Source of the DNA: the human T2T-CHM13v2.0 reference genome, Homo sapiens
NCBI RefSeq assembly: GCF_009914755.1
Contig: NC_060944.1
Reading direction: 5' to 3' (one strand)
DNA length: 64,000 nt
The position numbers and the translations under genes are program-made. A model generated the notes under the pieces. That model was not told the origin of the DNA and ran no database searches. It was given only the letters and a program-made list of their open reading frames with translations. This document shows, piece by piece, positions 15,160 through 17,867 of the stretch (within the stretch, counting starts at the first letter, position 1; each line of letters opens with the position of its first letter).

Positions 15160-15720
15160 CGTCTCTTTATTAAAGTACATAATATACACTCATGATAGGA
15201 AGAGCTGAAAATACTGGAAAGAAAATAAAAATCCTACAGAACCCCAGTATCCACGTGAAACTATGGTGACACCTTCGAACAGTTCCTTCCACCCTCTTAC
15301 TCCTTTGTATACGCAGCTATGTATGTGGTTTCGCTTATTGCAGTGGGACCGTACCCTACATACTAAATAGCACAAGGCTTGGTCGCTTAGCAGTAACCAT
15401 GCACACCTGCTGTTTTATACATTTACATCACTATTTTAAATGACTGAATTCACCATTATGAGATAACTGTCGTCTATTTAAGCGTCCTTTATGACGGTTG
15501 GCTGAGTTATCTCTAATTTTTCAAGTTCATAAATAACATGGGGATGAACACCTTTAATCTTTTTTGCATTTGTCTATTATTTCCTTAGATACATTCTTAA
15601 AAATAGGAGTCTGAGGTCACGATGCATGGACATTGATAATGCTTCTAATAAATACTTCCATATCATCTTCAGAAAAACCCGATTCCATACATCCCCACCA
15701 TTGGCATTAGAGAAAAGCCA
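15160..15720 (-). mobile_element. Old L1ME-like 3' fragment
   Basis: AT-rich, with 'ttttaaatgactgaattcaccatt', 'ttatttccttagatacattcttaa' and 'gagtctgaggtcacgatgcatggacatt' typical of antisense L1ME. Confidence 0.6.
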
Positions 15721-15867
15721 CTCAAATTCATGGAATCTTGAAATTGAATTTTTCCTGGGTAGATTCCCAAGGGTTATACTTAGGAATTAATTCATGGGGT
15801 GATTTTTTTCAAATGAAAAAAAAAAAATACATTTTCCTTTCCCATAATGCCAAAGAAAAATCAAGAA

Positions 15868-15936
15868 TTTTTTTTTTTGGGGGGGATAAAAAATGATCTC
15901 CCTTTATTACTCTCCCAAAGGTTACCAGTGTTTGAA
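15868..15936 (-). other. SVA 3'-transduced segment (15879-15936) plus second poly(A) tail (T-run 15868-15878)
   Basis: Non-SVA sequence between the SVA's own tail and the distal TSD copy; minus-strand AATAAA (tttatt 15903-15908) lies 24 nt before the second A-run. Confidence 0.8.
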
Positions 15937-17430
15937 TTTATTTATTTATTTATTTATTTTTATTTTTTTTTTTATTGATCATTCTTGGGTGTTTCTCGCA
16001 GAGGGGGATTTGGCAGGGTCATAGGACAATAGTGGAGGGAAGGTCAGCAGATAAACAAGTGAACAAAGGTCTCTGGTTTTCCTAGGCAGAGGACCCTGCG
16101 GCCTTCCGCAGTGTTTGTGTCCCTGGGTACTTGAGATTAGGGAGTGGTGATGACTCTTAACGAGCATACTGCCTTCAAGCATCTGTTTAACAAAGCACAT
16201 CTTGCACCGCCCTTAATCCATTTAACCCTGAGTGGACGCAGCACATGTTTCAGAGAGCACAGGGTTGGGGGTAAGGTCACAGATCAACAGGATCCCAAGG
16301 CAGAAGAATTTTTCTTAGTACAGAACAAAATGAAAAGTCTCCCATGTCTACCTCTTTCTACACAGACACGGCAACCATCCGATTTCTCAATCTTTTCCCC
16401 ACCTTTCCCCCCTTTCTATTCCACAAAACCGCCATTGTCATCATGGCCCGTTCTCAATGAGCTGTTGGGTACACCTCCCAGACGGGGTCGTGGCCGGGCA
16501 GAGGGGCTCCTCACTTCCCAGTAGGGGCGGCCGGGCAGAGGCGCCCCTCACCTCCCGGACGGGGTGGCTGGCCGGGCGGGGGCTGACCCCCACCTCCCTC
16601 CCGGATGGGGTGGCTGCCGGGCAGAGACGCTCCTCACTTCCCAGACGGGGTGGCTGCCGGGCTGAGGGGCTCCTCACTTCTCAGACAGGGCGGCCGGGCA
16701 GAGACGCTCCTCACCTCCCAGACGGGGTCGCAGCCGGGCAGAGGCGCTCCTCACATCCCAGACGGGGCGGCGGGGCAGAGGCGCTCCCCACATCCCAGAC
16801 GATGGGCGGCCGGGCAGAGACGCTCCTCACTTCCTAGATGGGATGGCGGCCGGGCAGAGACGCTCCTCACTTCCTAGATGGGATGGCGGCCGCGCAGAGA
16901 CACTCCTCACTTTCCAGACTGGGCAGCCAGGCAGAGGGGCTCCTCACATCCCAGACGAAGGGCGGCCAGGCAGAGACGCTCCTCACTTCCCAGACAGGGT
17001 GGCGGCCGGGCAGAGGCTGCAATCTTGGCACTTTGGGAGGCCAAGGCAGGCGGCTGGGAGGTGGAGGTTGTAGCGAGCTGAGATCACGCCACTGCACTCC
17101 AGCCTGGGCACCATTGAGCACTGAGTGAACCAGACTCCGTCTGCAATCCCAGCACCTCGGGAGGCCAAGGCTGGCAGATCACTCGCGGTTAGGAGCTGGA
17201 GACCAGCCCGGCCAACACAGCGAAACCCCGTCTCCACCAAAAAAACATGAAAACCAGTCAGGCGTGGTGGCACGCGCCTGCAATCGCAAGCACTCGGCAG
17301 GCTGAGGCAGGAGAATCAGGCAGGGAGGTTGCAGTGAGCCGAGATGGCAGCAGTACAGTCCAGCTTTGGCTCGGCATCAGAGGGAGACCGTGGAAAGAGG
17401 GAGAGGGAGACCGTGGGGAGAGGGAGAGGG
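15937..17430 (-). mobile_element. SVA retrotransposon (C/D-like), near full length, short VNTR
   Basis: On +: (ttta)n/T tail, SINE-R 'tttattgatcattcttgggtgtttctcgcagagg...' (~15971-16475), GC-rich VNTR (~16476-17010), Alu-like domain (~17011-17385), (agggag)n hexamer end; TSD agaaaaatcaaga at 15854-15866 and 17431-17443. Confidence 0.97.
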
Positions 17431-17867
17431 AGAAAAATCAAGACTTTTTAAGAAACTTTAATTGTTGATTAGTTGTGTATTTACATTGTATGAGAAGCAA
17501 TATAATCTTCAAAACACAGTCATATGTAAGATTCTTTAACTTTTCACCTGGCTCTTTTGTAATTTATTCCACAGTTTTATTCATTAGGTGTCTCTTAGTC
17601 CATTTCCGAGGTTCGTTTGGCATCAAAAACAACTTCCTAAAAATGTTTACAAAGGAAAGTTTACAAAGGAAATTAAGTTAATCAAAGCAGGATACGAATT
17701 CTGTAGGGAGTGTGGTCTCACCACTGTCAGCTTTGCCCAGGATGGCCAGCGCCAGTGGCCGTTAAACCAGTGGGCAGAGCTCTCCATGCACCAGCACAGA
17801 CTGGGGGCCACGCTGCAGCCCGGGAAGGGGCTGTGCAGGGCCAGCTGCTCCTCTGAGACGGGCAGAC

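What the first reader, a model, noticed from the sequence alone, without database searches (positions are those of the whole stretch)
15854..17451. SVA with a 3' transduction: second AATAAA and second poly(A) tail inside the TSD
Seen: the TSD (agaaaaatcaaga, then one mismatch a/c, then ttttt) is at 17431-17449 next to the hexamer end. Its partner is not beside the SVA's own tail (~15937) but ~70 bp further out, at 15854-15872. On the minus strand the order is SVA, A-rich tail, 58 nt of non-SVA sequence (ttcaaacactggtaacctttgggagagtAATAAAgggagatcattttttatccccccc), A11, TSD. The AATAAA is 24 nt from the second tail. The right junction reads TTTTT/AA (17445-17451), the canonical L1 endonuclease site. 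Established: SVA/L1 transcripts read through their weak poly(A) signal and carry flanking DNA to new sites. Inference: this copy descends from a source SVA elsewhere, and 15879-15936 is a barcode for that source and its sibling insertions.
Basis: partly seen in the sequence, partly recalled or inferred. Interest (0 to 1): 0.8.

Follow-up and report, generated by a model that had tools for sequence, protein, structure and literature searches.

The report
SVA with short 3' transduction tag
This is an ordinary full-length SVA retrotransposon in a CDH4 intron that carried along about 55 bases copied from an ABCE1 pseudogene on chromosome 7, where the parent SVA is no longer present in this genome.

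Summary
A full-length minus-strand SVA (15937-17433) is followed by a non-SVA stretch containing AATAAA, a short second A-tail and a 19-nt target-site duplication (15854-15872 / 17431-17449, 18 of 19 identical). No shuffle gave such a pair (0 of 300). The insertion site reads TTTTT/AA.

The tag occurs at three places in the assembly: here, chr7:23,700,344-401 (56 of 58) and chr4:148,446,3xx (55 of 59). Chr4 is the ABCE1 3'UTR. Chr7 is an intronless ABCE1 processed pseudogene. The tag is antisense to ABCE1 and matches chr7 better.

Neither locus has an SVA beside the tag or within 10-20 kb. No other SVA in this genome carries the tag. In both paralogues the SVA-tail/tag junction falls on TT/AAA, and the tag ends 20 nt after the first AATAAA downstream of that point.

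Best reading: a classical 3' transduction from a source SVA once inserted in the chr7 pseudogene, now lost or absent from this haplotype. L1 template switching is the main rival. The kind is well known, so interest is low.

The parts
15854..15872 (.). Left copy of the target-site duplication (3' TSD in element orientation), AGAAAAATCAAGAATTTTT
   Evidence: (D6)
15868..15878 (-). Run of 11 T on + (A on the element strand). 15873-15878 is the second, terminal poly(A) tail; 15868-15872 is shared with the TSD.
15879..15882 (-). Four extra C (G on +) between the tag and the terminal tail. They are absent from both donor paralogues and are unexplained.
15883..15940 (-). Transduced tag. It matches chr7:23,700,344-401 at 56 of 58 (antisense strand of the ABCE1 processed pseudogene). 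15937-15940 (TAAA) is ambiguous with the SVA tail.
15903..15908 (-). AATAAA inside the tag, 20 nt before the end of donor homology and 24 nt before the terminal A-run
15937..15973 (-). The SVA's own internal tail, degenerate A-rich with (AAAT)n
15971..15976 (-). The SVA's own AATAAA at the end of SINE-R (GATCAATAAA)
15977..16490 (-). SINE-R module, 98.6-99.4% identical to 29 other SVA copies
16492..17015 (-). VNTR module (period about 40/77/156), short for an SVA
17016..17378 (-). Alu-like module, 96.4-97.4% identical to 29 other copies, with CpG decay
17379..17433 (-). 5' hexamer-type region, (AGAGGG)n on + with two ACCGTGG interruptions
17431..17449 (.). Right copy of the TSD (5' TSD in element orientation), AGAAAAATCAAGACTTTTT
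17445..17451 (+). TTTTT/AA, an L1 endonuclease-type nick site at the insertion point

Best explanation
A source SVA once sat in plus orientation on chr7, immediately left of CHM13 position 23,700,344. That is inside, and antisense to, an old ABCE1 processed pseudogene. It had inserted at an ATT/AAATTC L1-endonuclease site.

A transcript of that copy ran through its own AATAAA and through its genomic (AAAT)n tail. It was cleaved and polyadenylated about 20 nt after the next AATAAA in the flank. The L1 machinery then inserted this RNA by target-primed reverse transcription at a TTTTT/AA site in a CDH4 intron on chr20. The product is SVA, old tail, 54-58 nt tag, new short A-tail, flanked by a 17-19 nt duplication.

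The source copy is absent from this assembly. It was either never fixed and lost, or it is still segregating at low frequency.

Shown: the anatomy, the donor mapping, the empty donor sites and the absence of siblings. Inferred: the existence of the source SVA and the read-through transcript.
For: - One TSD encloses SVA plus tag plus second tail (D6). It arose in 0 of 300 shuffles.
- TTTTT/AA lies at the insertion point.
- The tag has exactly three places in the genome. This comes from BLAST with 65 nt, with 491 nt of the paralogue, and from a whole-genome pattern scan allowing up to 2 mismatches.
- The tag matches chr7 at 56 of 58, against 55 of 59 with an indel for chr4. It shares three chr7-specific states: GGG, the A6 run, and T at the CpG site.
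- Chr4 is ABCE1 and chr7 is its intronless pseudogene. PF04068 hits lie at chr4:148,421,820 and chr7:23,703,491. A chr7 ORF matches PDB ABCE1 chains at E = 2.6e-113. The two 3'UTRs are 90% identical.
- In both paralogues the sequence is continuous across the junction point and reads TT|AAATTC. TTAAA occurs only 12 times in the 1678-nt pseudogene 3'UTR on that strand (0.7% of positions).
- The AATAAA used is the first AATAAA/ATTAAA downstream of that point (offset 32; the next is at 138). Donor homology ends 20 nt after it, at CCC|A.
- The internal tail is a degenerate (AAAT)n, as expected for a transcribed genomic tail. The terminal tail is pure A.
- Kirby et al. 2025 (PMC12593883, passages read) report transduction origins without an SVA and attribute them to lost or low-frequency sources.
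Against: - No SVA is seen at the donor. There is none beside the tag, and no SINE-R or VNTR match in chr7:23,680,000-23,709,999 or chr4:148,446,000-148,465,999.
- No sibling SVA carries the tag.
- In Kirby et al.'s Table S2, the consecutive chr7 rows shown jump from 21.35 to 24.41 Mb (hg38), so no non-reference SVA is listed in that interval (first 20 of 88 'chr7' matches shown). No TD group or source element is listed at 7p15. Placing the CHM13 donor position inside that hg38 interval is my assumption.
- Four C's between the tag and the terminal tail are in neither paralogue.
- The tag differs from chr7 at 2 of 58 positions and the TSD copies differ at 1 of 19. That is somewhat more than the 2 private substitutions in 512 nt of SINE-R would predict, though the counts are too small to be significant.
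Confidence: 0.8

Rival explanations
1. Template-switch chimera. L1 reverse transcriptase started on a polyadenylated cellular RNA, an antisense transcript of the chr7 ABCE1 pseudogene ending at the same poly(A) site. It copied about 55 nt and then jumped to the 3' end of an SVA RNA. On this reading no SVA ever sat on chr7.
For: It gives the same final anatomy: one TSD, a terminal A-tail, and an SVA complete to its own tail. The donor locus is empty and there are no siblings. Kirby et al. [quoted passage not shown]
Against: The switch point would have no reason to fall on a TT/AAA endonuclease-type site, which covers 0.7% of positions. It would also have no reason to sit just upstream of the first available AATAAA. 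The internal tail is a long, degenerate (AAAT)n of genomic type. No antisense transcript of this pseudogene was shown here.
Confidence: 0.12
2. The same read-through mechanism, but the source SVA sat in the 3'UTR of the ABCE1 gene itself on chr4 (minus orientation), not in the chr7 pseudogene.
For: Chr4 has the same TT|AAATTC site and the same AATAAA. At one position (T in GGTAACC) the tag agrees with chr4 and not with chr7.
Against: The tag shares three states with chr7 against chr4: GGG against GGA, A6 against A7, and CAGTG against CAGCG. Overall it matches chr7 at 56 of 58 and chr4 at 55 of 59 with an indel. Chr4 is also empty.
Confidence: 0.05
3. There was no single event. Either the tag is native chr20 flank or an earlier small insertion with the SVA landing next to it later, or the TSD is a chance repeat.
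For: None beyond the AT-richness of the flank.
Against: The tag is 97% identical to a unique chr7 locus and has no extended homology to the chr20 flank. The 19-nt repeat arose in 0 of 300 shuffles. No second repeat pair brackets the SVA alone: D6 is the only family pairing the two flanks.
Confidence: 0.02

Closest known systems
SVA-mediated 3' transduction (Xing et al. 2006, recalled and not held; Hoyt et al. 2021 preprint 10.1101/2021.07.12.451456, passages read; Kirby et al. 2025 PMC12593883, abstract, passages and Table S2 rows read)
   Same: The SVA is followed by unique flank from another locus, with a poly(A) signal 10-30 nt before a second A-tail, all inside one TSD at an L1 endonuclease site. 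Kirby et al. also report donor loci that lack an SVA, which they attribute to a lost or rare source.
   Different: Nothing in kind. In this instance the source is not present in the assembly, the tag is very short (54-58 nt), it comes from the antisense strand of a processed pseudogene, and four C's at the tag/tail boundary are not templated by the donor.
L1 3' transduction (Moran 1999; Goodier 2000; recalled)
   Same: The same read-through and target-primed reverse transcription logic, and the same use of the tag as a source barcode.
   Different: The carrier here is the non-autonomous SVA, mobilised in trans.
Chimeric retrocopies made by L1 RT template switching (U6-L1 type, recalled; the CKS1BP-SVA case in Kirby et al. 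2025, passage read)
   Same: Two unrelated RNA-derived parts within one TSD, with the 3' part carrying the terminal poly(A).
   Different: Here the junction coincides with an endonuclease-type site in the donor and with the first downstream AATAAA. Read-through predicts that; template switching does not.
Orphan transduction (Solyom 2012, cited in Kirby et al. 2025)
   Same: The source is traced only through the transduced sequence.
   Different: In orphan events the offspring lacks the retroelement. Here the offspring keeps a full SVA and it is the source that is missing.

Membership tests
SVA retrotransposon | Composite order: hexamer repeat, Alu-like, VNTR, SINE-R, AATAAA and A-tail | tested here: met
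   Searches show the hexamer-type repeat at 17379-17433 and the VNTR at 16492-17015. SINE-R is 98.6-99.4% identical to 29 genomic SVA copies. The Alu-like part is 96.4-97.4% identical to 29 copies.
L1-mediated (TPRT) insertion | A target-site duplication of about 7-20 nt flanking the whole insert, and a TTTT/AA-type nick site | tested here: met
   TSD of 17-19 nt, 18 of 19 identical, arising in 0 of 300 shuffles. TTTTT/AA lies at 17445-17451.
3' transduction | Non-element sequence between the element's own tail and a second terminal poly(A), inside the TSD | tested here: met
   tag at 15883-15940 and terminal A-run at 15868/73-15878.
3' transduction | A poly(A) signal 10-30 nt upstream of the end of the transduced segment | tested here: met
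   AATAAA lies at 15908->15903, 20 nt before the end of donor homology. It is the first AATAAA/ATTAAA downstream of the junction in the donor.
3' transduction | The tag maps to a unique locus elsewhere in the genome | tested here: met
   Three places in all: self, chr7 (56 of 58) and chr4 (55 of 59).
3' transduction | A source element of the same family lies directly 5' of the tag at the donor locus | tested here: not met
   The donor sites on chr7 and chr4 are continuous and empty. No SINE-R or VNTR match in 30 kb of chr7 or 20 kb of chr4. Other human haplotypes and apes could not be tested with these tools.
3' transduction | The donor junction looks like an insertion site of the source (endonuclease motif at the tag's 5' edge) | tested here: met
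   TT|AAATTC in both paralogues. TTAAA occurs 12 times in 1678 nt.
3' transduction | Sibling insertions share the tag | tested here: not met
   A whole-genome pattern scan allowing up to 2 mismatches found 3 places and no further SVA. This feature is supportive, not required.
3' transduction | The orthologous pre-insertion site has one TSD copy and lacks both SVA and tag | not testable with these tools
   No ape or other human assembly is held.
Template-switch chimeric retrocopy | The 3' part is the 3' end of an independently expressed polyadenylated RNA | not testable with these tools
   No expression or poly(A)-site data are available for the plus strand of chr7:23,700,3xx.

The most novel reading that the evidence does not exclude
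No source SVA ever existed on chr7. On this reading the tag is the 3' end of a polyadenylated antisense transcript of the ABCE1 pseudogene. L1 reverse transcriptase copied it first and then switched onto the tail of an SVA RNA. The locus would then be a germline SVA-cellular RNA chimera, and the four untemplated C's would be a trace of an unusual RNA 3' end.
Probability: 0.1. Interest if true: 0.35.

Novelty: already known. Interest (0 to 1): 0.2.

Why it matters
It matters little beyond bookkeeping. The tag records an SVA insertion in the chr7 ABCE1 pseudogene that this genome no longer carries. It is one more example that transduction tags can outlive their source elements. If a pangenome or ape assembly holds an SVA at chr7:23,700,344, the pair would give a dated parent-offspring link for an SVA lineage with (AAAT)n tails. 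The insertion is antisense to CDH4 in an intron, and nothing here suggests an effect on the gene.

Tried and rejected
- Source SVA near the donors. BLAST of the whole element against chr7:23,680,000-23,709,999 and chr4:148,446,000-148,465,999 gave only Alu-type hits (65-93% identity, to the Alu-like part) and A/T-rich tail hits.
- A third ABCE1 3'UTR copy. One search found none. A third PF04068 hit at chr16:1,367,612 has no 3'UTR match and was not pursued.
- Spliced transduction. Rejected because the donor has no AG acceptor before TTCAAAC; it reads ATTAAA|TTC.
- Homology between the chr20 flank and the ABCE1 3'UTR, which the MAFFT layout seemed to suggest. BLAST with 491 nt aligned only the tag, so I treat it as AT-rich chance similarity.
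- Subfamily. The 5' region resembles the D-labelled polymorphic copies SVA_Chr7_222 and 223 in Kirby Table S2. It lacks the GGACGG seen in the five full-length E-labelled rows shown and the short form seen in the F-labelled rows. No RepeatMasker-type classification was possible, so the subfamily stays open.
- Dating. There are 2 private substitutions in 512 nt of SINE-R. In the Alu-like part there are 2 private changes plus 7 recurrent transition differences, with a CpG count of 18 against 20-27 in relatives. The tag has 1 change per lineage. With recalled neutral rates this suggests a few million years, but the interval is too wide to say whether the insertion is human-specific.
- Literature.
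  - 'SVA + transduction + ABCE1' gave 9 papers, none relevant.
  - 'SVA + CDH4 + retrotransposon' gave 6 papers, none about this element.
  - PMC8149882 has no mention of chr20 or CDH4 in the main text.
  - The PMC12350158 supplements had no 7p15.3 or 20q13.33 entry, but one file was cut when stored.
- Not available:
  - Xing 2006.
  - The Science version of Hoyt et al. and its Table S13; bioRxiv supplements are closed.
  - The supplement of PMC9311842, which is too large.
  - Earlier-findings notes.
  I therefore cannot say whether this particular insertion is already catalogued as a transduction.

Full report
**What is in the window.** Reading 15700-17600 shows a complete SVA on the minus strand.
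- In element orientation it starts with a short hexamer-type region: (AGAGGG)n on the + strand at 17379-17433.
- It continues through an Alu-like part (17016-17378), a short VNTR (16492-17015; periods 40/77/156) and SINE-R (15977-16490).
- It ends in GATCAATAAA (AATAAA at 15976->15971) and a degenerate A-rich tail with (AAAT)n (15937-15973).
- After this tail come a non-SVA stretch containing AATAAA (15908->15903), seven C's, a run of 11 A's (15878->15868) and the flank.

**The duplication is real.**
- The repeat finder reports 15854-15872 against 17431-17449 as a 19-nt direct repeat at 95% (D6).
- It is the only 19-mer pair with at most 1 mismatch between the two 300-nt flanks, and 0 of 300 shuffles produced one.
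- The right copy is followed by AA, so the + strand reads TTTTT/AA, the L1 endonuclease motif.
- Five of the 11 A's belong to the TSD, so the terminal tail is 6-11 A.
- No other repeat pair brackets the SVA alone. SVA, tag and terminal tail therefore went in as one unit.

**Where the tag comes from.**
- A 65-nt query (15876-15940) against the window's own assembly hit three places: itself; chr7:23,700,344-401 on the opposite strand (97%); and chr4:148,446,326-378 (96%).
- A 491-nt query from the chr4 locus found the same three places.
- So did a whole-genome pattern scan allowing up to 2 mismatches; the reversed control pattern gave 0.
- The chr4 and chr7 loci are paralogous over about 1.7 kb and 90% identical.
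- Chr4 is the last exon and 3'UTR of ABCE1. A splice acceptor precedes the final coding stretch, and the Fer4_RLI domain (PF04068) lies 24.5 kb upstream on the same strand.
- Chr7 is an intronless, stop-ridden copy of the same mRNA. PF04068 lies 3.1 kb upstream, reading frames run across the exon junctions, and a 164-aa ORF matches ABCE1 chains in the PDB at E = 2.6e-113. Chr7 is therefore an ABCE1 processed pseudogene.
- The tag is antisense to ABCE1.

**Which paralogue is the donor.**
- Over the homologous 58 nt (15883-15940) the tag matches chr7 at 56 of 58. It matches chr4 at 55 of 59 with one indel.
- It shares three states with chr7 against chr4: GGG, the A6 run, and T at a CpG. It shares one with chr4 against chr7, and one is private.
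- With chr4 as outgroup, that is one change on the chr7 lineage and one on the chr20 lineage since the copy was made.
- Chr7 is the likelier donor.

**The donor is empty.**
- In both paralogues the sequence runs straight through the point where the SVA tail meets the tag.
- BLAST of the whole element against 30 kb around the chr7 site and 20 kb of chr4 on the side where a source SVA would lie gave only Alu-type matches to the Alu-like part and A/T-rich tail matches. There was no SINE-R or VNTR match.
- The source SVA is therefore inferred, not observed, and no other SVA in this genome carries the tag.

**Why read-through from a lost source is still the best reading.**
1. In element orientation the donor reads ...ATTATT|AAATTCAAAC..., which is TT/AAA. 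TTAAA occupies only 12 of 1678 positions (0.7%) on that strand of the pseudogene 3'UTR. A source SVA inserted by L1 would sit exactly there, and its 3' TSD would be the first bases of the tag.
2. The AATAAA in the tag is the first AATAAA/ATTAAA downstream of that point (offset 32; the next is at 138). Donor homology stops 20 nt after it, at CCC|A.
3. The internal tail is a long (AAAT)n microsatellite, while the terminal tail is pure A. That is what one expects if the internal tail was transcribed from a genomic copy and the terminal one was added to the RNA.
4. Kirby et al. [quoted passage not shown]

**Points against, or left open.**
- In Kirby et al.'s Table S2 (543 non-reference SVAs from 35 genomes), the consecutive chr7 rows shown jump from 21.35 to 24.41 Mb (hg38), so no insertion is listed in that interval. 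I saw the first 20 of 88 'chr7' matches. That the CHM13 donor position falls inside this interval is my assumption.
- Their tables have no 7p15 or 20q13 source or group.
- The supplements of the 1,019-genome study showed no 7p15.3 entry, but one file was cut when stored.
- Four C's (15879-15882) between the tag and the terminal tail are in neither paralogue. I have no tested explanation. Possibilities are a longer C-run allele at the source or later slippage.
- Template switching by L1 reverse transcriptase would give the same anatomy. Kirby et al. describe one such SVA case. It does not predict the endonuclease-type junction or the use of the first downstream AATAAA. I give it about 0.12.

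**The element itself.**
- SINE-R differs at 3-7 of about 512 positions from 29 genomic copies. Only 40 of 1968 candidates were scored.
- It has 2 private substitutions (two further 'private' columns there are alignment-end artefacts).
- The Alu-like part differs at 10-14 of about 384 positions from another 29 copies, with 40 of 4926 candidates scored.
- The Alu-like part has 2 private changes and 7 transition differences shared with changing subsets of copies. Its CpG count is 18, against 20-27 in the relatives. That pattern is CpG decay.
- The 5' region carries GATGCCGAGCCAAAGCTGGACTG and the longer T-rich form of the Alu-like part. This resembles the D-labelled copies SVA_Chr7_222 and 223 in Kirby Table S2. 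It is unlike the full-length E-labelled rows shown (GGACGG) and the F-labelled rows (short form).
- I could not run a formal subfamily call.
- With recalled neutral rates the few private changes suggest an age of a few million years. The interval is too wide to say whether the insertion is human-specific.

**Comparison and verdict.** This is a textbook SVA 3' transduction. Every defining feature tested is met except the presence of the source element at the donor, which fails in this one assembly. Sibling insertions, which would be supportive but are not required, are also absent.
- Hoyt et al. (preprint, passages read) catalogued 55 highest-confidence SVA 3' transductions in CHM13 and further lower-confidence ones in a table I could not open.
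- Xing et al. 2006 is not held.
- I therefore cannot say whether this insertion is already listed.
- The kind is already known and the interest is low.

Noticed in passing
L013, L015, L017, L019, L020, L025, L026 (3' ends printed): About 7 of the 29 closest SINE-R relatives show, by eye, a short non-A stretch (about 10-60 nt) after the SVA tail, followed by a run of 10 or more A's. These look like short 3' transductions of the same kind. Their TSDs were not checked.
   Followed up: no
window 15937-15973, and 12-13 of the 29 relatives: (AAAT)n tails recur in this group of SVAs. Each AAATAAAT repeat contains AATAAA. A genomic copy with such a tail therefore carries a string of poly(A) signals ending at its 3' edge, which would favour cleavage a few tens of nt into the flank and so favour very short transductions. 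This is an idea only.
   Followed up: no
window 15879-15882: Four extra C's on the element strand lie between the end of donor homology (ATCCC) and the terminal A-run. They are absent from both the chr7 and chr4 paralogues.
   Followed up: partly
L007 (G000:C16:1,367,612-1,367,710, minus strand): A third Fer4_RLI (PF04068) match, 57.9 bits in a 92-aa open frame, with no accompanying ABCE1 3'UTR match. It could be another ABCE1-derived fragment or a different gene. It was not examined.
   Followed up: no
L002 about 1198-1320 and 360-600 (chr7, downstream of the ABCE1 pseudogene): In mRNA orientation the pseudogene ends in a short A6 remnant of its poly(A) tail. What follows looks by eye like L1 ORF2-type sequence and Alu elements. 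This is ordinary repeat context, read by eye only.
   Followed up: no
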